Source: Escherichia coli (lineage in GTDB: Bacteria > Pseudomonadota > Gammaproteobacteria > Enterobacterales > Enterobacteriaceae). From it: a stretch of DNA of 64,000 nt. This document shows, in pieces, positions 32,137 through 64,000 of the stretch. Where the stretch lies: assembly GCF_003019035.1 (NCBI RefSeq), contig NZ_CP027447.1; one strand, 5' to 3'. The translations under genes were made by a program, and so were the position numbers. How positions within the stretch are numbered: position 1 is the stretch's first letter; each line of letters starts with the position of its first letter. The notes below the pieces were generated by a model. It was not told the origin of the DNA. It did no database searches and was given only the letters and a program-made list of their open reading frames with translations.

Positions 32137-32213
32137 GGAGCGGTAGTTCAGTCGGTTAGAATACCTGCCTGTCACGCAGGGGGTCGCGGGTTCGAGTCCC
32201 GTCCGTTCCGCCA
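32137..32213 (+). tRNA. aspV: tRNA-Asp (GUC), stand-alone copy; left boundary of accessory island
   Basis: 77 nt, identical to the rrn-distal tRNA-Asp at 23914-23990. Confidence 0.95.
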
Positions 32214-33462: not shown

Positions 33463-33942
33463 TTATTTAACTGCTGAATCTTCCTTGCGAGAAATATATC
33501 CATTATTACATTTCATGCCATTTTTAATATAGATTGCTCCTGGGAAAATTCCCGTATTATTACCGCAGGGGTGATAATTAGTATTGACATATCCTGTGAC
33601 AAAAGGAGCTATTAAAGGTGCTATTACGATAGCTATTAGTAAAAATATAAGAGTTAGCTGTATTGTTATGTCTGTGGCGAAATTGACTACCTTCGTTTTT
33701 TTGATTAAGAATGATTTTATTATCGTAAGTAAAATTACATGAATATTTAAAAAGGAAAACGACATGAAACCGAAGCACAGAATCAACATTCTCCAATCAT
33801 AAAATATTTCCGTGGAGCATTTTATTATTGAATATAGAGGTTTAACTCCGGTAAAAAACAAAGAAGCATTGAATGCAGGGAAAAATAATATGGCCATAAA
33901 AAACATCGAAAGAAACTCTTTTAATTTAACATGTAAACGCAT
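33463..33942 (-). CDS. ykfM: Small polytopic inner-membrane protein (YkfM-like); candidate immunity protein
   Basis: 159-aa ORF, very hydrophobic with several predicted TM segments, AT-rich; 9 nt downstream of the 309-aa ORF. Confidence 0.55.
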   Translation of the reverse strand: MRLHVKLKEFLSMFFMAILFFPAFNASLFFTGVKPLYSIIKCSTEIFYDWRMLILCFGFMSFSFLNIHVILLTIIKSFLIKKTKVVNFATDITIQLTLIFLLIAIVIAPLIAPFVTGYVNTNYHPCGNNTGIFPGAIYIKNGMKCNNGYISRKEDSAVK

Positions 33943-33951
33943 GGTTAATCC

Positions 33952-34881
33952 TCATATCACGGGTGGAGTGTTAAGAACATACATAAATGGAGTCATGTTT
34001 TCCCTTTTCCATTTATCAAGTTCCTGTTGCCGTTTTAGTCCATCTCTAATTGCATATTTTAATTTTTCTGATAAATGGCATTGAGCATCGATTTCATTTA
34101 AAACAACTGTACACACTATCCCTGTCAGTAAAATTGCTCCTCCGACAAGAATTACTGGAAAGCCAAAGCTAACACAGGCAAAAGAAGCCAGGCTTCCAAT
34201 AGCGGTTGCAACACCACCGGCTATAACTGCTTTGGCCACATCCATTGAAAAATCGCCAAGAAAATTAACCAGATCTCGCTCTGAACTCATAATAAATTCT
34301 ATGGTTCTCCAGGCTACTGAAAACCAGATACAGAACTTAACTCCTTTTATTGATTCAGATAAAGCTCCTCGCCAGCCAATAGCGAGTTCCAGAACTTGAG
34401 GCGCTCGTGAAGAGAAAATATATTTACCGAGCTTTTCTAAAAGCCAGGGGCTGGATGTTGTGATTTTTATATATTTCTCTCCAAGTATTTCAAAGTAACT
34501 TGCTTTTGTATACTTTAAGGCATTAAGGTTAAATATAATTTTCCCATTGTCATCAAACTCAGTCATTAATTTACCCGCGTTAACTAACCAGGCGAGTGTA
34601 TCTTTTATACCTGAAGGATGTGTAGTGATAAAATGAATGTAATCAAATGATGTTATTGGGCTGAGTATTTTTTTTGCAACATCAAGTGTCAAGAGAATAA
34701 CATGATGAGTGTTCTGATGCCTTAACTCATCAATGAGTGGGACGTCGTTAAGATAAGGGTGCTGAGGTACTAGCTGGTTTATCGGCTGAGCCCCCCGAAG
34801 AATGTCACCCACATAATCAGCCCACTGTGCATTCTGTGTGTTGTTGTTATTCCTTAAACCAGCCATTTTATCTCTCCGCAA
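33952..34881 (-). CDS. Membrane-anchored hypothetical protein (apparent full-length YafU-like); candidate Hcp-associated effector
   Basis: 309-aa ORF with soluble N-terminal region and C-terminal Gly/Ala-rich hydrophobic hairpin (VAKAVIAGGVATAIGSLASFACVSFGFPVILVGGAILLTGIVCTVVL); 28 nt downstream of the Hcp paralog. Confidence 0.55.
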   Translation of the reverse strand: MRRDKMAGLRNNNNTQNAQWADYVGDILRGAQPINQLVPQHPYLNDVPLIDELRHQNTHHVILLTLDVAKKILSPITSFDYIHFITTHPSGIKDTLAWLVNAGKLMTEFDDNGKIIFNLNALKYTKASYFEILGEKYIKITTSSPWLLEKLGKYIFSSRAPQVLELAIGWRGALSESIKGVKFCIWFSVAWRTIEFIMSSERDLVNFLGDFSMDVAKAVIAGGVATAIGSLASFACVSFGFPVILVGGAILLTGIVCTVVLNEIDAQCHLSEKLKYAIRDGLKRQQELDKWKRENMTPFMYVLNTPPVI

Positions 34882-34909: not shown

Positions 34910-35392
34910 TTACTGTACACGATCCTGCCATTTACTCATTGCATTCGTACCGGCTAACGTATGCTCCCAGGAAATATCTTCATAAATAAAGGCAATTCTC
35001 TCCTGTGGTTCCAGTTCTTTTTCCAGGACAGCATGCGGTGTGACAAAATCAATACTTGATATTCGGGCTTTTGACAGATTTATTTTATAATAAGGCTGGT
35101 AAATACCCGCTTTACTGGTTCGGTAGAGTATAAATTCACATAATGCCATTTTTTCATTGTCACTAAGTGCTTTTGCCAGCAATGGTGAGGATTTATCAAC
35201 CGGTTTGGTGATAATTAATTCATGATGATTGACATTTTGACTTCTTGAGATGGAATGCATTAACGCATAAACCATGATCTGATCTTTATGTTCTGGCTGC
35301 GCTTTGTTTCCGACAGAATCAAGCGTTGAGCAACCTGCTGAAATTAGCCCTTGTGTCTCTCCACTCAAAGATAAATAACTTATATTTGCCAT
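34910..35392 (-). CDS. Hcp-family protein (divergent TssD paralog)
   Basis: 160-aa ORF; YLSLSGETQGLISAGCSTLDSVGN aligns with canonical Hcp YISITGQTQGNITAGAFTADSVGN at 55478; similar C-terminal ...SWEH... motif. Confidence 0.75.
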   Translation of the reverse strand: MANISYLSLSGETQGLISAGCSTLDSVGNKAQPEHKDQIMVYALMHSISRSQNVNHHELIITKPVDKSSPLLAKALSDNEKMALCEFILYRTSKAGIYQPYYKINLSKARISSIDFVTPHAVLEKELEPQERIAFIYEDISWEHTLAGTNAMSKWQDRVQ

Positions 35393-35415: not shown

Positions 35416-36769
35416 TTATTTTTCGGCCGTGGTACCGGTTGCCGCCTCTGGCATGACGTTATTCTTCAGCAGCAGCCAGCGGCTTAACACGCCTTCGAGT
35501 CGCTCATTAATTTGTTTTTCCAGCGCATCTGTATTCTGCTTCTGCGCACGGGCATCCTGGTACTGCGTCAACAGAGACTCAACGGGTGTTTCCTGCCCCA
35601 GTCCCCGCTCCGCCTGCCAGATGACATTTTTGATATAGGAAAGGGTTAGTCCCTCTTTCTCGCGCTGCATCACTAGATCTGCAAAAGCATGTAAGTCCTG
35701 GCGGGTCTGCAACCAGCCACGCAACTGCGGGCTACTCTGTGCGCGGGTTTTGAGTGCCTCATTCCATTGTGTCGAGGCCTGTTGCTGTTGCAGGCTTTCC
35801 GGCCAGCGACTGTCGGCAACACGCATCATCTGCATCCCGGTTTCCAGCGGCTGTACCGGGGAGGTATCAAGAAGTTGTTGCAGCCTGCGCTCATAGTTTT
35901 CGAGTTCAGGTGAGGCCATCCACACCGTTGCTGCGCCCTGAGCGGTGTCGTTAACCTGTAACAGTTGCTGCTGCACCGGATAGACCTGCCACCACCACAA
36001 TGCTGAGGCGACAGCCACTGAACAGGCGATCCCTGCGATAAACCCTCTTACCATACTGCCTTGCTTTATCACACTGGCCTGTGGGGGATTCTCTGTCAGA
36101 CTGCGCACTTCCACTTTCATCTCAGGCAGGCCAGGCAGGGGAGGCACTACCGCTTCTGGTGTGGAAGATGCCTGTGTTTCCGGGGCATAAATCAGCGTTC
36201 TGACCGTGGTCTGTGCGGCGTTCTCAGTGTTACTCTTCAGCTGGGGTTCAAGCCGTTTACGCGTGTTCTGCATAAAATAGAGCAGATTCTCCACGCGCGG
36301 AACGCGCTTCAGTTCCACCTGCTGGAGCTTATCGCAGATAAGCTGCAATGCCCGCTCTGTGCGGTAGATCAGTGGTAGGTCGGATTCCGCAAAGGAGATT
36401 TGCTGACGCAGAATATTGCCGGTTCGGGAGTTAAACCAGTCCAGCATTTCAGTACGCGCCGGGCCGCCCTGCGGCCAGAACTTATCCCAGTCGTGGCTTA
36501 CCATTGCCGCCAGCAGTTCCGCACCTTCGCAGAATCCCGCCAGTCCCTGTGTCCGTGTCCGGGCAAGCGTATAGTAGGTGGCGGTGTGTAAATCCACACC
36601 GTTGGCTTTAAAAATCGCCAGCGCCAGCGACTCCACCAGTTTCCAGTTCAGCTCAGGCTGTGACGGGTGGCTGGCTTTGTTTATTTCCTCGCGGATGGCG
36701 CTGAATTCCGGCAGCCCGCGCGGGTCACTGCCGGTAACGATAGTTTGTGTCAGTACGTTACTATTCATC
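35416..36769 (-). CDS. T6SS-associated ImpA_N-domain membrane protein (VasL/TagA-like)
   Basis: ORF 35416-36858; likely start MNSNVLTQ at 36769 behind a GGAGG RBS; N-terminal TssA-like region (DPRGLPEFSAIREEINKASHPSQPELNWKLV...) plus one TM segment (GFIAGIACSVAVASALWWW); last gene of a V. cholerae-like cluster order. Confidence 0.7.
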
Positions 36770-36778
36770 CCTGCCTCC

Positions 36779-39700
36779 TCAGTACAGTGTGTCTGACAGA
36801 CCAAACTGGCTGAACAACCCACCGCTGAACGGGTTATCTTCCGTGTCGGTATGCACACGGTAGGTCATCGCGCCACCGTCCACGCTAAAGCGCACGGTAA
36901 AGTTGCCATCCTGTACTCCGGTCAGTTGTCCGGCCCCGAACAGGCGGAACTGCGCCCACGGCCCGCTGAAGCTGATACTGCGCGGCGCGTTGCCGCTGGT
37001 GCCGATGAGCGTCAGCTTACTTTCGTTGCCTTCGCGCATGTTGTTAGGCCAGACCAGATGGGCGGTATAGTTACGGCCCTGGCTGTAATCGACTAACTGA
37101 CCGTCAAGGTTCAGTACACTGCGGCGTTTATTGCCTGAAAGCGATACCGTTTCCACGGCAAAGGATGTTCCCAGACCGTTCTGTTTGCTGAAGAAGATGT
37201 CACGGATTTTCTGCGCAGTTTCCAGTTGCGCAATAATATCTTCGCGAATAATGACGTTGTTATCGCCGTCTTCCAGGCTCAGATCATTGTCGATAAACAG
37301 TTTCAGGTTCTGCTGGTAGAAGGTATCCAGTATGCCATCCGGTTTAAAGAATCGTTCGAAGGCATCCAGTGAGGCATCCTGTGCAGAACGTGGATTAAAC
37401 GGATAGTTATTTGCCAGTTGCTCGTTAAACGGTTTCACCACGCTGTCGCGCCAGTCCACTTCCATATAGTGAACGGCTTCCACCATCACCACATGCCAGG
37501 CCTGGTCAGCCAGCCTGCCTACCCAGCGGTTGAGCGGAGCAGGCAGTGTTTTTGCCATCTGGCGGGTGGCGAATATTGGATCGCTGCTGTTCTGATCAAG
37601 CCTTAACTGCACGGCTTTCAGCGCCGATTTCCCTGGTACAGGCGCGTTCTGGATTGCCAGCAGGTAGCGGTGTAACTCGGTGAGCTGCTGGTATACGGCC
37701 TGCATCGTGCTTTCTTTGTCTTTCTGTACTGTCAGGGTACTGTTTTCCGGGGCGAATTCATGCCCGAGGCGGGTAAGTAACTGGTAATCCGGCTCTGCCA
37801 GGGCCTCATCCCGCTCTTTGGCAGAGAGTTTTTCAGAAAAGACTCCTGGCTGTGTGTTGTCACGCAGCACGGTCAGCGCCCGCTGCAAAGGCTGGTCGCC
37901 GCTGATAACCTGCTCCAGAGTGCCAGTCAGTTGTCCAATGGACTCAAAATTGCGGATATTGAGATTGTCCATCCCGGCCCGCCAGGTGGCGGTGTAGTCG
38001 CTGATATACTGCTCGGTCAACTGGCGCTGAATTTCCGCGCGGTCGGCGTCACTGTATTTCACGCTGCGGGTGAGGTTGAGTACCCAGGAATCCATCGCCG
38101 TCAGTTCAACCAGTTCATCGCGCTGTTTTACAAAATAGCTTTGCAGGCCGTAACGGGTAAGAAACTGTGGAACAACCAGTTTGTTATCATCGGCAGATGT
38201 AAACACCTGGTCAAAGGTTGGCCCTACCTGGTCACGCAGATTGAGGTCAGCAGGAAGAACGCCCAGCGCCCGCGTTTTCAGGCTCTGATAAACCCGCTGG
38301 TAGACAGGCAGTTTGCTCAGTTCTTTCTGTGCTGATACCACGGGCTTGTCATATGGCGTCCAGCGGCTGATGGCATCACCGTCGCCCGCCTGACGCTCTG
38401 CATGCCAGTCAGTATGAGCCAGCGCGTAGTCAAGATGGGACATCAGTTGTGTCTGGATATCGCGCTGTCCGTGGAACTTTTCGCTCCAGCGTTTTGCCAT
38501 ATACTGCTTCACCACCTCATTGTTACGTCCGCTTTTGTCCTCCAGCATTCGCATCACGCGCAGCACCGCGAGTTTTTCTTCACTCTCCGGCGGCGCGGCA
38601 TTCATCGCTTTGACCAGCCCGTTAAACAGCGAGGGCAGGTAACGCTGCTCCAGAAGTTGCAGATAGGTCTGTTCCACATATGGCCCGATACGTCTCCCCT
38701 GGTACAGGCCCATATCGGCCAGACGGCTGCGCTCGCCCCAGTCGCCATAGGCCAGTGTTGCATCGCGTACCGGGTTCAGCAGTGGCAGTTGCAGGTTGCC
38801 AAAGTCATCTTCCCCCTGCGGAGGCGGCACGTCCATAAAGGCTTTGGCCTGCTTAAGCACGGTGATGCCGGACTGATAGTTACCGTTGTAATAGTGATGC
38901 CAGCCGGTGATGAGCAGCAGTGCCGCCACGCCGCCTGTGGCAGAGAAAACCGTCAGGCGGCGACGGGAACGCATCAGCCAGGCGCTGCTCTCTGTTGCCA
39001 GATTAGGCTCTGCGAGTAATGCCTGCGGGAACAGGCTGCGGGTGAAATAAGGCGCGGTGTCCACCAGAGGCCAGGACGCCAGTGGGTTATTGCCCAGTCG
39101 GTACTGGCGGGCAGCAGACTGGGTGAATATATCATCCATCTGTCCACGCTGAAGCGAAGAGGTGAGATAGACACCACGCAGCATCACGTTCATATTTTCG
39201 CCGTCAAGCAGACCCTCAAGCAGTGACACCAGCGGCTCACGGCTTCCCTGCATCTGGCGGGAAAAACTGAATAAAGACGCGCGGGTGTGAGTCTGGGTGA
39301 CCATCAGATCCGGCAACGCCAGATTCATTCGATCCACCCATGTCTGCCAGAAAGCATTCAACTCTGTTCGCCAGTCATCATTTTCATGAGCACGGCGGGT
39401 GAACGTAACACCCAGAATCGCATCGCGATCCTGTCTGTTCAGTGACTGAAACAGGGCGGCAAAACCCTGCAATAAATCAAGCCGGGTCAGTACCACGTAA
39501 ACCGGTAACTGGCAATGAAGATGCTGGCGTATATCCTGTAAGCGGCTGCGCAGCGTCTGTAACAGATGCTCGCGGCGGCGTTTGTCTGCGGTCAGCAGAT
39601 CGGGTAAATCGAGTGTCAGAATAATCCCGTTCAGCGGCTGGCGCGCGCGCTTTTCCTTCAGCCAGCCGAGGGCATGTTCCCACAGACGGCGATGCAGGAT

Positions 39701-40303
39701 ATCCGCATCAGCGGGAGCGCAGAGTGTGCCGTCGATATCAAAGATCACCGCCTGTTTACCGACATGGGGCGTGAGGTACAGGCGTTGTTCTGCGCCGCGC
39801 GCGCCCTCCGGGGCATAAATAATGTCTGACGGAAACCCCTCGCGCAGCAGTGTCGTTTTGCCACTGCCCACAGGACCGATGACCATATACCACGGCAACT
39901 GCCACAGGAAACGGCGGTTGTCGAGATGGCGTTGCAGGCGCAGCAGCCAGCGGTCGAGGTAACGCTGCTGGGCGTTCAGTTCCACACTGAGCGCATCAAC
40001 GGCTTCCTCGCGCTGTTGCTTTTGCATTTTTTCAAGCTGTTGCAGGCGCTTCATTACCCGGACGGTAAGCCACACCAGGGCAATAATCCCCCACGCCGCC
40101 GTTGCCAGCCAGCGGTTCGCCAGTGGTTTGAGCCACTGCTCTTCATACAGCGTCCATGTCGGGCCTTTCCACCAGATCCATACCAGCAGGAAAATCCACG
40201 CCAGTATCAGCAGCCAGAATGCAGAAACTTTAAACCGGGGCATCGCCGGGCGCAGGGCTGATTTGAGTTCGCTGAATAGTCGGGGTGTTGGTAATCTGAA
40301 CAC
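36779..40303 (-). CDS. tssM: T6SS membrane-complex protein TssM (IcmF)
   Basis: 1174-aa ORF, N-terminal TM segments, Walker A GPVGSGKTT. Confidence 0.93.
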   Translation of the reverse strand: MFRLPTPRLFSELKSALRPAMPRFKVSAFWLLILAWIFLLVWIWWKGPTWTLYEEQWLKPLANRWLATAAWGIIALVWLTVRVMKRLQQLEKMQKQQREEAVDALSVELNAQQRYLDRWLLRLQRHLDNRRFLWQLPWYMVIGPVGSGKTTLLREGFPSDIIYAPEGARGAEQRLYLTPHVGKQAVIFDIDGTLCAPADADILHRRLWEHALGWLKEKRARQPLNGIILTLDLPDLLTADKRRREHLLQTLRSRLQDIRQHLHCQLPVYVVLTRLDLLQGFAALFQSLNRQDRDAILGVTFTRRAHENDDWRTELNAFWQTWVDRMNLALPDLMVTQTHTRASLFSFSRQMQGSREPLVSLLEGLLDGENMNVMLRGVYLTSSLQRGQMDDIFTQSAARQYRLGNNPLASWPLVDTAPYFTRSLFPQALLAEPNLATESSAWLMRSRRRLTVFSATGGVAALLLITGWHHYYNGNYQSGITVLKQAKAFMDVPPPQGEDDFGNLQLPLLNPVRDATLAYGDWGERSRLADMGLYQGRRIGPYVEQTYLQLLEQRYLPSLFNGLVKAMNAAPPESEEKLAVLRVMRMLEDKSGRNNEVVKQYMAKRWSEKFHGQRDIQTQLMSHLDYALAHTDWHAERQAGDGDAISRWTPYDKPVVSAQKELSKLPVYQRVYQSLKTRALGVLPADLNLRDQVGPTFDQVFTSADDNKLVVPQFLTRYGLQSYFVKQRDELVELTAMDSWVLNLTRSVKYSDADRAEIQRQLTEQYISDYTATWRAGMDNLNIRNFESIGQLTGTLEQVISGDQPLQRALTVLRDNTQPGVFSEKLSAKERDEALAEPDYQLLTRLGHEFAPENSTLTVQKDKESTMQAVYQQLTELHRYLLAIQNAPVPGKSALKAVQLRLDQNSSDPIFATRQMAKTLPAPLNRWVGRLADQAWHVVMVEAVHYMEVDWRDSVVKPFNEQLANNYPFNPRSAQDASLDAFERFFKPDGILDTFYQQNLKLFIDNDLSLEDGDNNVIIREDIIAQLETAQKIRDIFFSKQNGLGTSFAVETVSLSGNKRRSVLNLDGQLVDYSQGRNYTAHLVWPNNMREGNESKLTLIGTSGNAPRSISFSGPWAQFRLFGAGQLTGVQDGNFTVRFSVDGGAMTYRVHTDTEDNPFSGGLFSQFGLSDTLY

Positions 40304-40321: not shown

Positions 40322-41737
40322 TTATTGTTCTGCCGTGAATTTTTGTTCTAGCTGCTCAAGCAGGGACGGCTCCCAGTCTGCCACCATCATCTGCAATCCC
40401 ATCCTGAACAACATCCGGTACTGTTGCTGCGCAAGCTGTATCAGCCCCGCCTCCTCCGTCAACTGTGCGGCAAGGTACTGGCGGTGAAACTGATCGCGGG
40501 GTTCACCGGCGGGCAACGTATCCAGATACCGTAAGGCGGCTTCCAGCCCCTGTTCATCAAAACACAACCGCGCAGCCTGAATATCTTCATTACTCACCTG
40601 TATGACTGGCGCGGCCTGGTTACCTGGCTGAGTTGCAAGCCATTGCTTCGTTTTTTCAGAAACAAACGGTGTGTGGTCGTTAAACAGAAGATCGGCAAGA
40701 GCGGGCAGACGGCCAAGGAAGGAAACGACTTCATCGCGGATGGCATCGGCCACGGCGGTATAGCCAAGACGGTGCGCCGTCTGTGCAGAAATGCAGTGAC
40801 CGTCCAGCCAGTAGGGTGCCAGCAATACGCTTTTTTCCACCTGCTGCCACAGCGCCATATCGGCACTACCGAGCTGAGCATGGTAATCCGCCACCATATC
40901 GGCAGAGACCGCAGCCAGTGGGGTACGTCCATCGCTTTCCGCCTGGGGCGTACTGGTGATGGATTGCCACAGGGCATGGCGGCGGAGGCGATAGCCCAGC
41001 GGCGAGTCCGGCTGGCGTTCACATAAAATAGCCGCCACTTTTAACAGCGTGTCGCGCCAGGCTTTGTCGTCGTGACTGTCGATGGCGATCTGTAGAGCCG
41101 GAGCACTGGTTTGCGTCATGCTGCTTTCAGACGTGACGGTGGTTTGTGGTGAACTACCGGAGGCCGCCGGAGTGGGGACCGGAGCAGGAGCCGCACGATT
41201 AAACGTACGCTGGTACAGGGCAAAAAGATCATCGGTAGCCTGTGCCAGTTCCGGGACGTTATGTGACTGCCAGCACTGTGCCAGTTTCGCCAGTTCACCT
41301 AATAGCGCATCGCGCTGCGCTGTGGCGGCGTTCTGTGAAAAGCCTTCAATACCTGTTTCAAAGCGTTTAATGACCTGGCTGGCGAAGCGTTTTTTATGTG
41401 CCATATTCTGCGGCGCGGCCACCGCCCAGTAATGTTCCACATACAGTGCCAGCAGGCGCAAGGCCAGAAGCGGATCACCGGCATGTTGCAGGGTTCTCAG
41501 CAGATGCGCCAGCAGACGAAAATCCTTACTCTCCGAAGCCAGAATGACCAGCCCCCGGCGCTGGAGTTCCGGGATATCCAGTTGGCTGTGGGCCAGTGAA
41601 CCCAGTTTGACGATTTCGCCGTCGATATACTCCCAGTCCGGGTTGTCATCTTTTAGCGCCGATGCCTGTTTTTCTTCAGGCAGGTTTTCCAGCAGGTGCG
41701 ATATCCAGACATTCGGATCGCGTAAGTCCATTGCCAT
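40322..41737 (-). CDS. tssA: T6SS baseplate/cap protein TssA
   Basis: ORF 40322-41803; probable start MAMDLRDPNVW at 41737; ImpA_N-type N-terminal domain. Confidence 0.85.
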   Translation of the reverse strand: MAMDLRDPNVWISHLLENLPEEKQASALKDDNPDWEYIDGEIVKLGSLAHSQLDIPELQRRGLVILASESKDFRLLAHLLRTLQHAGDPLLALRLLALYVEHYWAVAAPQNMAHKKRFASQVIKRFETGIEGFSQNAATAQRDALLGELAKLAQCWQSHNVPELAQATDDLFALYQRTFNRAAPAPVPTPAASGSSPQTTVTSESSMTQTSAPALQIAIDSHDDKAWRDTLLKVAAILCERQPDSPLGYRLRRHALWQSITSTPQAESDGRTPLAAVSADMVADYHAQLGSADMALWQQVEKSVLLAPYWLDGHCISAQTAHRLGYTAVADAIRDEVVSFLGRLPALADLLFNDHTPFVSEKTKQWLATQPGNQAAPVIQVSNEDIQAARLCFDEQGLEAALRYLDTLPAGEPRDQFHRQYLAAQLTEEAGLIQLAQQQYRMLFRMGLQMMVADWEPSLLEQLEQKFTAEQ

Positions 41738-41741
41738 ATTT

Positions 41742-42485
41742 TTATTCTCCCGCCCAGTGGCAGGCGTCGCGTAGCGGCGCAATAACCCGTGCCAGCCCGT
41801 CAATGTTAAAGGTCAGCTTTCCGGCTGCGTTGTCTGCGCCGGTATCCACCGTCAGCGTTGTTGCGCCGAACAGTTGCTTAATTTCATCAATCCCGGACAG
41901 CCCCCGGCTGGACTCCAGCAGGGTGCCGTTCTCGCGCACAAACCAGTGGCTGCGCAATACCCGGCTGTCGGCATTCAGGGTGACGGCGATATCATGGACA
42001 TCCAGAGGGTGCACCAGCGCCACCTGCATCCGGGTGATATTGTCCACACAGCTGAACATCAGCACCGGGCGAGGCGGAACATGGCCGATAGCCGGGGTGG
42101 TTACCACCACCGTCGGGCGTTCCCCCGGCACCTGCGTCACCAGCAGCTCTGTGGTGTTGCCCTGGCGACGTTTTTCCTGCTCTATGGCACGGGTCCAGGC
42201 TTCGCCCACAAAACTGGCTTTGACCAGCGCCCCGTCAAACCCTGACGGGGACAGCGGTTCCAGCAGGCGGTCATAGCAGTCAAGCCGCTCCAGCGCCGCG
42301 AACTCCCGCCGACAGGACTGCATGGCCTGTAATGTGGCTGTCGCATCCGGCGGGGTCGCTGTGGCGACGGCTACCGCCACACCGGCCATTGACGATGTTT
42401 CTGCGGGCGCGGCACTGGCGGGTAAGCCCGCCATCAGGCCCGCAATAAACCATCCTGTCTGCCGGAAAACGCGCAACCTGCTCAT
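41742..42485 (-). CDS. T6SS-associated secreted/periplasmic protein (VasI-like by position)
   Basis: 247-aa ORF with signal peptide (…LMAGLPASAAPA); sits between clpV and tssA as vasI does in V. cholerae. Confidence 0.5.
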   Translation of the reverse strand: MSRLRVFRQTGWFIAGLMAGLPASAAPAETSSMAGVAVAVATATPPDATATLQAMQSCRREFAALERLDCYDRLLEPLSPSGFDGALVKASFVGEAWTRAIEQEKRRQGNTTELLVTQVPGERPTVVVTTPAIGHVPPRPVLMFSCVDNITRMQVALVHPLDVHDIAVTLNADSRVLRSHWFVRENGTLLESSRGLSGIDEIKQLFGATTLTVDTGADNAAGKLTFNIDGLARVIAPLRDACHWAGE

Positions 42486-47349: not shown

Positions 47350-47874
47350 TTATTCATCCTCTTTTTTCATTTCGATGCTGCTTTGACGTACATGCACCAG
47401 CAGGCGGTAATGGTGGCCGGTTCCTTCCACCGTCTCGATTTGTTTCCATTCAGTGGCCTGGTCATCGGAGAAATAGGCCACGACACCAATAAACTGCGTT
47501 TTCTCATCCAGCTTTACCGGCGGCAGGGTTTTGATGGTGTCCGGCAACAGGTTGAAATCCTGGTGGTCGATATAGTTTTTACCCAGCACATCCGGTAGCG
47601 GCGTACTGGCTATCTGGTCATAGTCGGCTGCCAGCAATTTTGAGTCGTCAGTCAGGTACACCAGTTGCACATCCACGGCGGCTGATTCACCCTCCGCATT
47701 GGTATTGGTGTCCGGTTCGGTCAGCAGGGTGACGGTTATTTCCGAAGGTTGCTCCTTCAGGCTCCCGACCTGGATATCCGGGTTTTTGATCACCTCACTG
47801 ATTTTTTTCGCCGTTTCGCAGCCGGTTAATATGACGCACATCAGCACGCAGGCCAGAAACGCCTTCCTGTTCAT
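47350..47874 (-). CDS. tssJ: T6SS outer-membrane lipoprotein TssJ
   Basis: 174-aa ORF with lipobox ILTGCE; position between tagH and tssK. Confidence 0.85.
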   Translation of the reverse strand: MNRKAFLACVLMCVILTGCETAKKISEVIKNPDIQVGSLKEQPSEITVTLLTEPDTNTNAEGESAAVDVQLVYLTDDSKLLAADYDQIASTPLPDVLGKNYIDHQDFNLLPDTIKTLPPVKLDEKTQFIGVVAYFSDDQATEWKQIETVEGTGHHYRLLVHVRQSSIEMKKEDE

Positions 47875-58380: not shown

Positions 58381-61300
58381 ATGAGCGGAAAACCGGCGGC
58401 GCGTCAGGGAGATATGACCCAGTATGGCGGTCCCATTGTCCAGGGTTCGGCAGGTGTAAGAATTGGCGCGCCCACCGGCGTGGCCTGTTCAGTGTGCCCG
58501 GGCGGAGTCACTTCCGGCAACCCGGTAAACCCGCTGCTGGGAGCGAAGGTGCTGCCCGGTGAGACGGATGTTGCGCTGCCCGGTCCGCTGCCGTTCATTC
58601 TCTCCCGCACCTACAGCAGCTACCGGACCCGGACGCCTGCACCGGTGGGCGTTTTCGGCCCCGGCTGGAAAGCGCCTTCTGATATCCGCTTACAGCTACG
58701 TGATGACGGACTGATACTCAACGACAACGGCGGGCGGAGCATTCACTTTGAGCCGCTGCTGCCGGGGGAGGCGGTGTACAGCCGCAGCGAGTCAATGTGG
58801 CTGGTGCGTGGCGGTAAGGCAACGCAGCCGGACGGCCACACGCTGGCACGGCTGTGGGCGTCGCTGCCGCCGGATATCCGGTTAAGCCCGCATCTTTACC
58901 TGGCGACCAACAGCGCACAGGGGCCGTGGTGGATACTCGGCTGGTCAGAGCGGGTGCCGGGTACTGAGGACGTACTGCCAGCGCCGCTGCCGCCGTACCG
59001 GGTGCTTACCGGGCTGGCGGACCGCTTCGGGCAGACGCTGACGTACCGGCGTGAGGCCGCCGGTGACCTGGCCGGGGAAATCACCGGCGTGACGGACGGT
59101 GCCGGGCGGAAGTTCCGTCTGGTGCTGACCACACAGGCGCAGCGGGCGGAAGAGGCCCGTAAACAGCACACCGCTTCCTTATCTTCCCCTGACACCCCCC
59201 GCCCTCTTTCAGACTCAGCTTTCCCCGACACACTGCCCGGTACGGAATACGGCCCCGACAGGGGTATCCGCCTTTCGGCGGTGTGGCTGATGCACGACCC
59301 GGCATACCCGGAAAGCCTGCCCGGTGCGCCACTGGCGCGGTACACGTATACGGAAGCCGGTGAACTGCTGGCGGTATATGACCGCAGCAATACGCAGGTG
59401 CGCGCTTTCACGTATGACGTGCAGCACCCGGGCCGGATGGTGGGGCACCGTTATGCGGGAAGGCCGGAGATGCGCTACCGCTACGACAATACCGGGCGGG
59501 TGGTGGAGCAGCTGAACCCGGCAGGGTTAAGCTATCGCTATCTTTATGAGCAGGACCGCATCACCATCACGGACAGCCTGAACCGGCGAGAGGTGCTGCA
59601 TACAGAAGGCGGGGCCGGGCTGAAGCGGGTGGTGAAAAAAGAACTGGCGGACGGCAGCGTCACGCACAGCGGGTATGACGCGGCAGGAAGGCTCACGGCA
59701 CAGACGGACGCGGCGGGACGGCAGACAGAGTACGGTCTGAATGTGGTGTCAGGCGATATCACGGACATCACCACGCCGGACGGGCGGGAGACGAAATTTT
59801 ACTATAACGACGGGAACCAGGTGACGGCAGTGGTGTCCCCGGACGGGCTGGAGAGCCGCCGGGCGTATGATGAGCGGGACAGGCTGGTAACGGAGACATC
59901 GCGCAGTGGGGACGTCATCCGGTATGCTTATGATAATCCGCACAGTGAATTACCGGCCACGACAACAGATGCGACGGGCAGCACCCGGCAGATGACCTGG
60001 AGCCGCTACGGGCAGTTGCTGGCGTTCACCGACTGCTCGGGCTACCAGACCCGCTATGAGTACGACCGCTTCGGCCAGATGACGGCGGTCCACCGCGAGG
60101 AAGGCATCAGCCTTTACCGCCGCTATGACAACCGTGGCCGGTTAACCTCGGTGAAAGACGCACAGGCCCGTGAAACGCAGTATGAGTACAACGCCGCAGG
60201 CGACCTGACTGCCGTTATCACCCCGGATGGCAACCGGAGTGAGACACAGTACGATGGGTGGGGAAAGGCCATCAGCACCACGCAGGGCGGGCTGACGCGC
60301 AGTATGGAGTACGATGCTGCCGGACGTATCACCACGCTGACTAACGAGAACGGCAGCCACAGCGACTTTAGTTACGATGCGCTGGACCGCCTGATACAGC
60401 AGGGCGGCTTTGACGGGCGGACGCAACGTTATCATTATGACCTGACCGGAAAACTCACGCAGAGTGAAGATGAGGGGCTTGTCATCCTCTGGTACTACGA
60501 TGAATCGGACCGTATTACTCACCGCACGGTAAACGGTGAACCGGCAGAACAGTGGCGGTATGACGGCCACGGCTGGCTGAGAGAAATCAGCCACCTGAGC
60601 GAAGGCCACCGTGTTGCCGTCCACTATGGCTATGATAATAAAGGCCGCCTGACCAGTGAGCGCCAGACGGTGCATCACCCGGAGACGGGAGAGCTGCTCT
60701 GGCAGCATGAGACCGGACATGCGTACAACGAACAGGGGCTGGCAAACCGCGTCACGCCGGACAGTCTGCCGCCGGTGGAGTGGCTGACCTATGGTAGCGG
60801 TTATCTGGCAGGCATGAAGCTGGGCGGGACGCCGCTGCTGGAGTTCACGCGCGACCGCCTGCACCGTGAGACGGTGCGCAGCTTCGGCAGCATGGCAGGC
60901 AGTAATGCCGCATACGAACTGACCAGCACATACACCCCTGCAGGCCAGTTACAGAGTCAGCACCTGAACAGCCTGGTGTATGACCGTGACTACGGGTGGA
61001 ATGACAACGGAGACCTGGTGCGCATCAGCGGCCCGCGACAGACGCGGGAATACGGCTACAGCGCCACGGGCAGGCTGGAGAGTGTGCGCACCCTCGCACC
61101 GGACCTGGACATCCGCATCCCGTATGCCACGGACCCGGCGGGCAACCGGCTGCCGGACCCGGAGCTGCACCCGGACAGTACACTCACAGTGTGGCCGGAT
61201 AACCGCATCGCGGAGGATGCGCACTATGTCTACCGCCACGATGAATACGGCAGGCTGACGGAGAAGACGGACCGCATCCCGGCGGGTGTGATACGGACGG

Positions 61301-61989
61301 ACGACGAGCGGACCCACCACTACCACTACGACAGCCAGCACCGCCTGGTGTTCTACACGCGGATACAGCATGGCGAGCCACTGGTCGAGAGCCGCTACGT
61401 CTACGACCCGCAGGGACGGCGAATGGCGAAACGGGTATGGCGGCGGGAGCGTGACCTGACGGGGTGGATGTCGCTGTCGCGTAAACCGGAGGTGACGTGG
61501 TACGGCTGGGACGGCGACCACCTGACGACGGTGCAGACCGACAGCACACGTATCCAGACGGTATACGAGCCGGGAAGCTTCACACCGCTCATCCGCATCG
61601 AAACAGACAACGGCGAGCGGGAGAAAACGCAGCGGCGGAGCCTGGCGGAGAAGCTCCAGCAGGAAGGGAGCGAGGACGGACACGGTGTGGTGTTCCCGGC
61701 TGAACTGGTGAGGATGCTGGACAGGCTGGAGGAAGAAATCCGGGCAGACCGCGTGAGCGGTGAAAGCCGGACGTGGCTTGCACAGTGCGGGCTGGCGGTG
61801 GAGCAACTGGAAAAACAGGTGGAGCCGGAATACACGCCGGAACGCACACTGCATCTTTACCACTGCGACCATCGGGGACTGCCGCTGGCGCTTATCAGCG
61901 AAGACGGCAATACGGTGTGGAGCGCGGAGTATGATGAATGGGGAAACCTGCTTAATGAGGAGAACCCGCATCATGTGTATCAGTCATAG
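58381..61989 (+). CDS. rhs: PAAR-domain Rhs protein, core region, terminated by in-frame TAG
   Basis: 1202-aa ORF; N-terminal PAAR-like region ([42 protein letters not shown]) then YD/RHS repeats; ends ...[11 protein letters not shown] at TAG 61987-61989. Confidence 0.9.
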
Positions 61990-62598
61990 CGTCTGCCGGG
62001 GCAGCAGCATGATGAGGAGTCGGGGCTGTATTATAACCGGAACCGGTACTACAATCCGTTGCTGGGGAGGTATATTACCCAGGATCCAATTGGGCTGGAG
62101 GGGGGATGGAACCTGTATAATTACCCACTGAATCCGATAATAAGGATGGATCCTTTGGGTTTGTATAATTTATATCAATTATTATATGATGTTTGGCATG
62201 ATGATTCATATGGAACATCATCAATTGATATTACTGGCAGTGGAGATCTAATATCATTAGGTGGTCATGCAGGACTTGGCGTTGCGTTTGCTAAAAAGAA
62301 AGGTGAAATGTTATCTGATATTTGTATTTATGCTACAGCATGCGGACATGCAGGAATTGGTGGTGGGATAAATGCGGCTATCACATATTCTGAGACCAAG
62401 TCTTTACCTACATCGGGAGTCAGCAATTCAGTAGGTGTAACGGTTGGCGGCGGAGTTGGGGGGCATTTTGCGTATACTTATGTAGTGGATGTTGATAATC
62501 CAGAATCATCGACAGAATCTGTTGGTATCGGTGCAGGTGTTGACGCTTCAGTTATGACTCTGGCTTGTAGAACGTGGCAAGAATGCTGGGTCAATTAA
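61990..62598 (+). other. Rhs C-terminal region in frame with the core: conserved junction (DPxGL motif) plus glycine-rich candidate toxin domain
   Basis: Same frame as 58381 ORF; [58 protein letters not shown] then an AT-rich, Gly-rich tail; track ORF 62059 begins at TTG, no ATG. Confidence 0.6.
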
Positions 62599-62609
62599 CA
62601 GGAGGAAAT

Positions 62610-63005
62610 ATGAAAGAATATATATTTTTAGTTTTATTTTTATTGTGTGGTTGTTCTCCAGTGGACATAGAGCCAGCTAGACAAGAAGTTAATATCTTTC
62701 GTGGTTTATATCAGACAGGAAAATACAGTGATATATATAAAATCACTTCAAGTGATTTTCAGACTGCCACATCTGAAAAAAAATTTATCGACATAATGAG
62801 CGAAGCAAAAGGAAAAGATCTTGGGACTTATAAAAAATCAACCCTTAAAACTGAAAAAATCACTCGCGGATTATTTTCAAACGATGAAATTACATTGATA
62901 TATTTCTCAGAATATTCAAAAAGAATTGTCCAAGAGGTTTTTGTGTTTAATGTTGAAGACAAAAAAGTAAAATTAAAAGGTTATAGGTATGATTCGATTA
63001 ATTAA
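62610..63005 (+). CDS. Putative lipoprotein, candidate Rhs immunity protein
   Basis: ORF 62574-63005; ATG at 62610 behind AGGAGG; MKEYIFLVLFLLCGCSP lipoprotein signal; AT-rich; immediately after the Rhs C-terminal domain. Confidence 0.6.
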   Translation: MKEYIFLVLFLLCGCSPVDIEPARQEVNIFRGLYQTGKYSDIYKITSSDFQTATSEKKFIDIMSEAKGKDLGTYKKSTLKTEKITRGLFSNDEITLIYFSEYSKRIVQEVFVFNVEDKKVKLKGYRYDSIN

Positions 63006-63297
63006 ATTTTTTGATGATGACTTCAATTAGTAGAACATGTATTTTTCGATAAAAGCACCGATGACTTTTTCATGAAGTTCTACAGAGCGCGAGAAACAGA
63101 TGGTTCTGCGAGTCAGACGTTTGATTCAGGTTCTCAGGGGCAGATTCAGGGACAGGGAAAGATCATCAGAAGTTCACTTTTTGCACTAAATAATTCGCAT
63201 TTTATGTTTAAAAATTGAGATATTTCTCATTACCTGAAACTGTTTTTTTATTGCTTATACATGATCAAATACTCCTTACATAATTAAGGAGAACAAA

Positions 63298-64000
63298 ATG
63301 GAACTTAAAAAATTGATGGAACATATTTCTGTTATCCCCGATTACAGACAAGCCTGGAAAGTGGAACATAAATTATCGGATATTCTACTGTTGACTATTT
63401 GTGCCGTTATTTCGGGTGCAGAAGGCTGGGAAGATATAGAGGATTTTGGGGAAACACATCTCGATTTTTTGAAGCAATATGGTGATTTTGATAATGGTAT
63501 TCCTGTTCACGATACCATTGCCAGAGTTGTATCCTGTATCAGTCCTGCAAAATTTCACGAGTGCTTTATTAACTGGATGCGTGACTGCCATTCTTCAGAT
63601 GATAAAGACGTCATCGCAATTGATGGAAAAACACTCCGGCATTCTTATGACAAGAGTCGCCGCAGGGGAGCGATTCATGTCATTAGTGCGTTCTCAACAA
63701 TGCACAGTCTGGTCATCGGACAGATCAGGACGGATGAGAAATCCAATGAGATTACAGCTATCCCTGAACTTCTTAACATGGTGGATATTAAAGGAAAAAT
63801 CATCACAACTGATGCGATGGGTTGCCAGAAAGATATAGCAGAGAAGATACAAAAACAGGGCGGTGATTATTTATTCGCTGTAAAAGGAAATCAGGGTCGG
63901 CTAAATAAAGCCTTTGAGGAAAAATTCCCACTGAAAGAATTAAATAATCCAGAACATGACAGTTACGCAATTAGTGAAAAGAGTCACGGCAGAGAAGAAA
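63298..64000 (+). mobile_element. ISAs1-family transposase (H-repeat-associated protein), 5' part; continues beyond window
   Basis: ATG at 63298 behind AAGGAG; [58 protein letters not shown]... matches E. coli H-rpt proteins; typical position downstream of Rhs elements. Confidence 0.85.

What the first reader, a model, noticed from the sequence alone, without database searches (positions are those of the whole stretch)
35416..36769. Membrane-anchored TssA-like (ImpA_N) protein in addition to canonical TssA
The cluster has two ImpA_N-domain proteins: the canonical TssA and this 450-aa protein with a TssA-like N-terminal region followed by one TM helix and a Gln-rich C-terminal region. This class (VasL/TagA-like) is only partly characterised and may act as a membrane stopper or anchor for the distal sheath end.
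Basis: inference. Interest (0 to 1): 0.35.

Follow-up and report, generated by a model that had tools for sequence, protein, structure and literature searches.

The report
E. coli T6SS-2 TagA sheath anchor
This gene encodes the already catalogued TagA/VasL accessory protein of the common E. coli type VI secretion system 2, a membrane-anchored relative of TssA that by homology stops and holds the far end of the firing sheath, so the finding is correct but ordinary.

Summary
It has an ImpA_N domain (E 3e-19), a roughly 60-residue disordered linker, one non-amphipathic hydrophobic helix (about 240-262) and a VasL domain (E 6e-23) with 12.5% Gln. It lies between tssM and hcp in the E. coli T6SS-2 island at tRNA-Asp (aspV). 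That island also carries a canonical long TssA (ImpA_N + VasJ).

The protein aligns end to end (27% identity, E 1e-48) with EAEC 042 TagA, the experimentally studied sheath stopper. It has the same architecture and sits beside a long TssA.

It is not new. The gene occurs in 2965 of 5426 complete E. coli genomes, and RefSeq calls it "VasL domain-containing protein". Pfam VasL is described as "EvfB, or VasL", and evfB is a gene of the E. coli K1 cluster. The O157:H7 cluster is listed with a TagA in Bernal et al. 2021.

One point goes beyond annotation. Across 49 diverse homologues the hydrophobic helix, the positive-inside bias and the near-total absence of Cys after the helix indicate a bitopic protein with a periplasmic VasL domain. 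The literature instead calls TagA peripherally membrane-associated. Interest is low.

The parts
35416..36768 (-). tagA / vasL (evfB-type) coding sequence, 450 aa plus stop
   Evidence: ORF list; Pfam ImpA_N + VasL; RefSeq annotates the identical 1353-bp CDS as 'VasL domain-containing protein'.
36774..36780 (-). GAGGAGG ribosome-binding site. It overlaps the tssM stop codon (36779-36781) and lies 5 nt upstream of the ATG
   Evidence: Sequence read directly. Indicates translational coupling with tssM (inference).
36238..36741 (-). N-terminal helical ImpA_N/TssA-Nt1-like domain, residues 10-177. The Pfam ImpA_N match covers residues 12-113 (36430-36735)
   Evidence: Pfam; AF2 pLDDT above 95 over most of this range; matches to solved TssA N-terminal domains 6rju (E 1.8e-6) and 6hs5.
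36055..36237 (-). Pro/Ser/Thr/Ala-rich linker predicted as disordered, residues 178-238
   Evidence: AF2 pLDDT below 50 for residues 201-236; composition; length varies among homologues of 373-542 aa that keep the same two domains.
35983..36051 (-). Single predicted transmembrane helix, residues about 240-262 (VRGFIAGIACSVAVASALWWWQV)
   Evidence: Kyte-Doolittle 1.83. Position conserved in 48/49 homologues. All 49 have Eisenberg <H> >= 0.42 and a low hydrophobic moment. Conserved basic cluster, W240, F243, G246 (48/49), W259-261, P264.
35467..35895 (-). VasL domain (PF12486), residues 292-434. All-alpha, Gln-rich, Cys-free
   Evidence: Pfam; AF2 models; Cys 0.035% family-wide.
36779..40303 (-). 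tssM (IcmF), immediately upstream; context
   Evidence: TIGR03348 945 bits.
40322..41803 (-). Canonical long TssA (ImpA_N + VasJ), the presumed partner of TagA. The ORF is listed from a TTG; the RefSeq-equivalent start is about 41737
   Evidence: TIGR03362 499.7 bits; PF16989 E 2.8e-72.
34910..35392 (-). hcp, 23 nt downstream of tagA; context
   Evidence: TIGR03344 203 bits.

Best explanation
This is the TagA (also TsmA, VasL or EvfB) accessory protein of the E. coli T6SS-2 cluster at tRNA-Asp (aspV).

Shown here:
- It is co-oriented with tssM and hcp and tightly packed between them.
- Its start site sits on the tssM stop codon.
- It has a TssA-like ImpA_N helical domain, a disordered linker of about 60 residues, one membrane-spanning helix and an all-alpha VasL domain.
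- It is a full-length homologue of EAEC TagA.

Inferred from the experimentally studied homologues:
- The protein sits in the inner membrane all round the cell.
- When the growing sheath, capped by the long TssA (VasJ type), reaches the opposite membrane, the cytoplasmic ImpA_N domain on its flexible tether binds the TssA cap and the sheath end.
- This stops polymerisation and clamps the extended sheath until it fires.
- Loss of TagA is expected to give over-long, bent or detached sheaths and lower but not abolished T6SS-2 activity. Over-production is expected to block assembly.

Inferred from sequence statistics:
- The helix spans the membrane N-in/C-out, so the VasL domain is periplasmic and provides the fixed anchoring point.
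For: Architecture: ImpA_N + VasL, and a single non-amphipathic hydrophobic helix whose position is conserved in 48/49 diverse homologues.

AF2 model: mean pLDDT 84.9, with an N-terminal helical domain, a disordered linker, a long helix at 239-274 and an all-alpha C-terminal domain.

Homology: 27% identity over the full length, E 1e-48, to the 455-aa ImpA_N+VasL protein encoded beside the sci-1 cluster of EAEC 042.

Context: the order vasI-tssA(VasJ)-tssM-tagA-hcp is reproduced in Morganella. Distant family members lie next to tssE/tssJ/tssG of T6SS-1-type clusters, one of which is seen to carry a long TssA. All core T6SS genes are intact in the window.

Function of the class: PMC6745524, PMC6450956, PMC7545191, PMC7896307.
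Against: No experiment on the T6SS-2 copy itself was found in the searchable literature.

Identity to the characterised EAEC protein is only 27%. V. cholerae TagA was not compared directly.

T6SS-2 firing dynamics in E. coli are not described in the papers read.

The N-terminal domain shows no BLASTP similarity to the cluster's own TssA, so any competition for the same binding site is inferred from shared Pfam membership only.

In V. cholerae, deleting tagA had a negligible effect on killing (PMC6745524), so the phenotype may be subtle.
Confidence: 0.85

Rival explanations
1. It works mainly as a brake on assembly rather than as an anchor. It would titrate or compete with TssA at initiation sites and so set firing frequency, with distal-end holding secondary.
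For: Over-produced V. cholerae TagA abolishes sheath assembly and retains TssA at initiation sites. TagA is sometimes seen briefly at initiation sites (PMC6745524). Deleting tagA stimulates sheath assembly in a tssA mutant (PMC7545191).
Against: At native levels both characterised TagAs are mostly seen at distal ends, and their loss gives long, bent sheaths. This reading does not exclude the anchor model. Nothing in the window distinguishes the two.
Confidence: 0.1
2. It is a second TssA-type cap or chaperone (TsaC or TsaB class) that primes or polymerises the sheath, redundant with the canonical TssA.
For: It shares the ImpA_N domain. There are weak sub-threshold hits to the TssA equivalogs TIGR03362 (84.5 bits) and TIGR03363 (39.8 bits). 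The N-terminal domain resembles solved TssA N-terminal domains.
Against: It scores far below both TssA cut-offs (230.1 and 160.85), and the match covers only the N-terminal 200 residues. It has no VasJ or other ring-forming C-terminal domain, and has a TM helix plus VasL instead. A complete TssA is already present.
Confidence: 0.03
3. It is an effector or effector-delivery protein that uses ImpA_N as a loading domain, as proposed for ImpA_N-Tme fusions.
For: ImpA_N fused to a membrane-disrupting toxin domain has been reported (PMC7046647). The gene lies next to hcp and a low-GC cargo region.
Against: The C-terminal domain is VasL, not a toxin family. The gene order tssM-tagA-hcp recurs in Morganella, and all 10 further homologues scanned keep ImpA_N + VasL. 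No immunity-like gene is paired with it across these contexts.
Confidence: 0.02

Closest known systems
TagA of enteroaggregative E. coli 042 (Sci-1/T6SS-1; Santin et al. 2018; TsmA, class B of Schneider et al. 2019)
   Same: Same length (455 vs 450 aa) and same ImpA_N - linker - hydrophobic helix - VasL architecture. Alignable end to end (27% identity, E 1e-48). Both accompany a long VasJ-type TssA.
   Different: A different T6SS lineage: phylogenetic group 2/T6SS-1 against group 1/T6SS-2. A different position: EAEC tagA lies about 4 kb downstream of the sci-1 core genes, separated by unrelated genes, whereas here it sits between tssM and hcp. Sequence divergence is 73%. The T6SS-2 copy has not been tested.
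VasL / TagA of Vibrio cholerae (VCA0121; Schneider et al. 2019, Stietz et al. 2020)
   Same: Same T6SS phylogenetic group 1. The gene order matches: vasI(VC_A0118)-vasJ(VC_A0119)-vasK-vasL, as read from Pfam descriptions and locus-tag numbering. Both clusters encode exactly two ImpA_N proteins. Pfam's VasL family carries its name.
   Different: Bernal et al. put V. cholerae in a separate 'TagAV' column from the E. coli O157 'TagA'. V. cholerae TagA is reported as only 19.3% identical to EAEC TagA. The V. cholerae cluster also has vasH, which is absent here (own knowledge).
Canonical long TssA (TsaC; ImpA_N + VasJ), for example the window's own TssA at 40322-41803
   Same: Pfam ImpA_N domain at the N terminus. 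Same operon.
   Different: No pairwise similarity by BLASTP. TssA has no TM helix and carries the ring-forming VasJ C-terminal domain. It is the sheath cap, not the membrane anchor.

Membership tests
TagA / TsmA (class B ImpA_N proteins) | N-terminal ImpA_N domain (PF06812) | tested here: met
   E 3e-19, 69.7 bits against a cut-off of 26.9, residues 12-113.
TagA / TsmA (class B ImpA_N proteins) | Hydrophobic or transmembrane region after the ImpA_N domain | tested here: met
   One segment at about 240-262, Kyte-Doolittle 1.83. Position conserved in 48/49 homologues. Eisenberg <H> >= 0.42 and mean hydrophobic moment 0.08 in all 49. No dedicated TM predictor was available.
TagA / TsmA (class B ImpA_N proteins) | C-terminal VasL domain (PF12486) | tested here: met
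   E 6.4e-23, 81.8 bits against a cut-off of 27.3, residues 292-434 covering profile positions 1-146 of 147.
TagA / TsmA (class B ImpA_N proteins) | Full-length sequence homology to an experimentally characterised TagA | tested here: met
   27% identity over 457 aligned columns, E 1e-48, to EAEC 042 L002:24071-25435. That ORF is equated with published TagA from its position by sci-1 and its architecture; the old locus tag could not be checked.
TagA / TsmA (class B ImpA_N proteins) | Co-occurrence with a long TssA (ImpA_N + VasJ) in the same T6SS cluster | tested here: met
   TssA at 40322-41803 has PF16989 at E 2.8e-72. The same pairing is seen in L003 and L004.
TagA / TsmA (class B ImpA_N proteins) | Direct similarity to V. 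cholerae VasL (VCA0121) | not tested
   The sequence was not retrievable without the single costly genome scan. Only Pfam naming and gene-order agreement were used.
TagA / TsmA (class B ImpA_N proteins) | Localises to the distal sheath end and binds TssA; deletion gives over-long, bent sheaths | not testable with these tools
   Needs live imaging and interaction assays in a T6SS-2-active strain.
TssA (TsaC, NCBIfam TIGR03362 / TIGR03363 equivalogs) | Score above the equivalog cut-off over the whole protein | tested here: not met
   84.5 bits against 230.1, and 39.8 bits against 160.85. The N-terminal region only is matched: residues 11-217 for TIGR03362 and 40-184 for TIGR03363.
TssA (TsaC, NCBIfam TIGR03362 / TIGR03363 equivalogs) | C-terminal VasJ oligomerisation domain (PF16989) | tested here: not met
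   No hit even at E <= 1.

The most novel reading that the evidence does not exclude
TagA/VasL proteins may be bitopic N-in/C-out inner-membrane proteins whose VasL domain lies in the periplasm, rather than cytosolic proteins peripherally attached to the membrane. The distal sheath clamp would then be a true transmembrane tether. Its periplasmic domain could fix it to the cell wall, to TssM/TssJ or to another envelope partner.

Evidence across 49 homologues of 23-77% identity:
- A 19-33-residue, non-amphipathic hydrophobic helix, flanked by a basic cluster plus Trp on one side and a Trp belt about 20 residues later.
- K+R counts of 3.4 in the 20 residues before the helix against 1.6 after it.
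- Cys at 1.15% in the N-terminal domain and 1.5% in the helix, but 0.035% in the VasL domain.
- The same Cys-free pattern in the periplasmic part of TssM and in mature TssJ of this cluster.
Probability: 0.5. Interest if true: 0.4.

Novelty: already known. Interest (0 to 1): 0.15.

Why it matters
For genome annotation it matters little. The gene could be named tagA rather than "VasL domain-containing protein". Its presence, together with a long TssA, predicts that E. coli T6SS-2 is a slow, anchored system that holds its sheath extended before firing, according to the TssA-long/TagA framework of PMC7896307.

The only wider point is topology. If the VasL domain is periplasmic, models of how the distal sheath end is fixed and how non-canonical distal contractions are triggered would need a periplasmic partner. 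Reported interactions of the TagA C-terminal fragment with cytosolic proteins would also need re-examination.

Tried and rejected
- VasL fold: Foldseek of the full model against PDB found only the TssA N-terminal domain (6hs5, E 1.1e-3) and weak TPR-like matches.
- VasL fold: a VasL profile against PDB sequences found nothing significant.
- Conclusion on the fold: there is no solved relative and no functional clue.
- Literature: Santin et al. 2018 is not held, no preprint was found, and the old locus tag EC042_4550 is not searchable. The primary evidence for 'cytosolic/peripheral' could therefore not be read.
- Alternative periplasmic domains: I looked for family members with another known periplasmic C-terminal domain as comparative proof of topology. 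All 10 atypical-length homologues scanned had ImpA_N + VasL again.
- Start codon: the longer GTG-initiated ORF (480 aa, to 36858) was considered and rejected as the true start.
- Amphipathic in-plane helix: considered and rejected (hydrophobic moment 0.08).
- Re-entrant hairpin: considered and rejected, because the segment is mostly 19-28 residues long.
- Paralogy with TssA: BLASTP against the cluster's own TssA gave no alignment, so recent duplication is excluded.
- Scans not run: the genome contigs and metagenome scans, because the classification did not depend on them.

Full report
**1. The observation**

The window carries a minus-strand ORF at 35416-36858 when read from a GTG. Translating 35416-36769 gives 24 stops, while 35419-36768 translates cleanly.

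Three things favour the ATG as the true start:
- It lies 5 nt downstream of a GGAGG inside GAGGAGG, which overlaps the tssM stop codon.
- RefSeq annotates the identical 1353-bp CDS from this start.
- Homologues begin at this position.

The domains are as follows:
- Pfam finds ImpA_N at residues 12-113 (E 3e-19) and VasL at residues 292-434 (E 6.4e-23). Both are well above their gathering scores.
- There is one hydrophobic segment, with a Kyte-Doolittle 19-residue maximum of 1.83 at 239-257. The next best window in the protein scores 0.88.
- Residues 275-450 are 12.5% Gln, against 6.1% in the N-terminal half.

It hits TIGR03362 at 499.7 bits against a cut-off of 230.1, and has ImpA_N plus T6SS_VasJ.

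**2. Where it sits**

The DNA is Escherichia coli. The gene matches 2965 of 5426 complete E. coli genomes, 2481 of them at 99% identity or more. It is named "VasL domain-containing protein".

The neighbourhood, in the orientation of the operon, is tssB, a small ORF, tssC, tssE, tssF, tssG, tagH, tssJ, tssK, tssL, tssH, vasI, tssA, tssM, this gene, then hcp. Two unannotated ORFs follow, then tRNA-Asp at 32137-32213. A divergent hcp-vgrG-rhs arm lies on the other side.

This is the T6SS-2 island at aspV, as described for E. coli (PMC6730261). Every core gene is open in the window. That includes tssH, which starts at the ATG at 45241.

**3. What the protein looks like**

An AlphaFold2 model built on 49 diverse homologues has mean pLDDT 84.9. 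It shows:
- a helical N-terminal domain at residues 10-177, with block-mean pLDDT mostly above 95
- a segment at 201-236 with pLDDT below 50, rich in Pro, Ser, Thr and Ala
- one long helix at 239-274
- an all-alpha C-terminal domain at 276-435

**4. The family**

An exhaustive HMMER search of 1.84 billion representatives found 857 proteins at E <= 1e-3 and 145 at E <= 1e-30. Named members come from Enterobacterales, including Salmonella, Citrobacter, Enterobacter, Morganella, Hafnia, Pantoea and Moellerella. Most are annotated as VasL domain-containing. All 10 homologues of atypical length that were scanned have the same ImpA_N + VasL pair and differ mainly in linker length.

Genomic contexts fall into three types:
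- In Morganella the order vasI-tssA(VasJ)-tssM-tagA-hcp is identical to the window.
- More distant members (23-25% identity) sit after tssG-tssJ-tssE in clusters laid out like EAEC sci-1. One of these contigs also shows a long TssA. Another member lies directly after tssE.
- One member is an orphan outside any T6SS cluster.

**5. Comparison with the characterised proteins**

In EAEC 042 an intact 455-aa ORF lies about 4 kb downstream of the sci-1 core genes (L002:24071-25438). It has ImpA_N + VasL. It aligns with the window protein over its whole length at 27% identity, E 1e-48. By position and architecture I take it to be the TagA of Santin et al. 2018. The old locus tag could not be verified.

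The literature describes this class as TagA, renamed TsmA, or class B. [quoted passage not shown] The reported properties are:
- EAEC and V. cholerae TagA localise to the membrane and to the distal end of fully extended sheaths.
- They interact with TssA.
- Their loss gives excessive polymerisation, bending, detachment and loss of the static extended phase.
- Over-production blocks assembly.

These come from PMC6745524, PMC6450956 and PMC7545191. TagA anchors go with long, VasJ-type TssA proteins in T6SS phylogenetic groups 1 and 2 (PMC7896307; PMC10433429).

The window protein meets every sequence-level criterion of this class. It fails the TssA equivalog criteria, scoring 84.5 bits against 230.1 with no VasJ domain. 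It shows no pairwise similarity to its own cluster's TssA.

**6. Mechanism**

Shown here: the architecture, the membrane helix, the homology, and the operon position with apparent translational coupling to tssM.

Inferred from homologues: the protein is distributed in the inner membrane. Its cytoplasmic ImpA_N domain, on a flexible tether of about 60 residues, captures the TssA cap and sheath end when the sheath reaches the far side of the cell. This terminates polymerisation and holds the sheath extended until contraction. I put this at 0.85.

The main rival is not exclusive of this model. It is that TagA acts chiefly as a brake on initiation by sequestering TssA (0.1). A second TssA-like cap (0.03) and an ImpA_N-borne effector (0.02) are unlikely, for the reasons given under the rival explanations.

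**7. The one point beyond annotation: topology**

[quoted passage not shown] From memory, the abstract of Santin et al. 2018 calls it a cytosolic protein tightly associated with the membrane; I could not read that paper. The sequence family points another way.

- *Hydrophobic segment.* In 49 homologues of 23-77% identity the segment keeps its position but not its sequence. It is 19-33 residues long, mostly 20-26. All 49 have Eisenberg <H> of 0.42 or more, with a mean hydrophobic moment of 0.08, and none falls in the surface-helix region.
- *Flanking residues.* The segment is preceded by a basic cluster and a conserved W-(K/R)-G-F-x-A-G motif, with Gly246 in 48 of 49. About 20 residues later comes a Trp belt and then Pro-Leu.
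- *Positive-inside bias.* K+R in the 20 residues before the helix averages 3.43, against 1.59 after it. The count is higher before the helix in 40 of 49 sequences (Wilcoxon p = 8e-8).
- *Cysteine.* Cys is 1.15% of the N-terminal domain and 1.48% of the helix. It is 0.035% of the VasL domain (3 of 8491 residues), and 47 of 49 sequences have none there (Fisher p = 1e-25). These p-values ignore shared ancestry.
- *Internal control.* In the window's own cluster the known periplasmic part of TssM (after the third TM helix) and mature TssJ also have no Cys. Nearly all cytoplasmic components do have Cys.

Together these are the marks of an N-in/C-out bitopic protein with a periplasmic VasL domain.

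The evidence against this reading is:
- the published description of TagA as peripheral or cytosolic

A fluorescent C-terminal mNeonGreen fusion in V. cholerae does not settle it either way.

I rate this reading at about 0.5. It needs PhoA/LacZ fusions or cysteine accessibility to settle.

**8. Novelty and verdict**

The gene is not new, for four reasons:
- Pfam PF12486 is described as "EvfB, or VasL", and evfB is a gene of the T6SS cluster of E. coli K1 RS218.
- RefSeq names the gene in thousands of genomes.
- The O157:H7 Sakai copy (ECs_0217) is 99% identical over 440 residues.
- Dataset S1 of Bernal et al. 2021 lists the O157:H7 EDL933 and O55:H7 group-1 clusters with a TagA (32% identity, 93% coverage to their reference).

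What remains untested is the T6SS-2 copy's own phenotype. No paper on it was found.

The finding is a correct annotation of a known accessory component. Interest is 0.15.

Noticed in passing
L002:24071-25438 (E. coli 042, NC_017626.1 4884070-4885437): The intact 455-aa ImpA_N+VasL ORF next to sci-1 is taken to be the experimentally studied TagA. RefSeq/PGAP annotates it as three separate 'incomplete' pseudogene fragments (ImpA_N, POTRA, VasL). This looks like an annotation artefact.
   Followed up: partly
window 33463-34881 (-): Two ORFs lie directly downstream of hcp: 309 aa (33952-34881, with a Gly-rich, strongly hydrophobic C-terminal region) and 159 aa (33463-33942). They sit in a low-GC stretch (38-43%, against 55-60% in the core cluster) and have no Pfam or NCBIfam hit. 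They are a candidate Hcp-linked membrane-targeting effector and immunity pair. O157:H7 Sakai carries different small ORFs at the same position.
   Followed up: partly
L008:8971-10382 and L008:3980-5389 (E. coli O157:H7 Sakai): In Sakai the canonical tssA (ECs_0219) is annotated as a pseudogene, while the tagA orthologue (ECs_0217) is intact. ECs_0217 has a different, longer C-terminal tail (469 aa) that overlaps hcp.
   Followed up: no
window 36779-40303 and 47350-47874 (-): The periplasmic part of TssM (after the third TM helix, about 700 residues) and mature TssJ contain no cysteine, whereas almost all cytoplasmic T6SS-2 components do. This served as an internal control for the Cys-free VasL domain.
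   Followed up: partly
L001 versus window 15394-56770: The closest complete genome (strain SCU-301) is 99.87% identical over 41 kb but has 30 gap openings, and its tssH is annotated as frameshifted. The window's tssH is open from the ATG at 45241. Indel errors in that assembly are the likely cause.
   Followed up: partly
window 58381-64000 (+): An Rhs protein (DUF6531 + RHS repeats, 1202 aa) lies downstream of vgrG and is followed by a 38% GC segment. This is the usual variable Rhs toxin tip and immunity region of T6SS-2.
   Followed up: no
L005:8001-9419 (GCA_001484765.1): A family member with ImpA_N + VasL (25% identity) lies outside any T6SS cluster, between an RND efflux/TetR pair and cytochrome c maturation genes. 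It is an orphan tagA.
   Followed up: no
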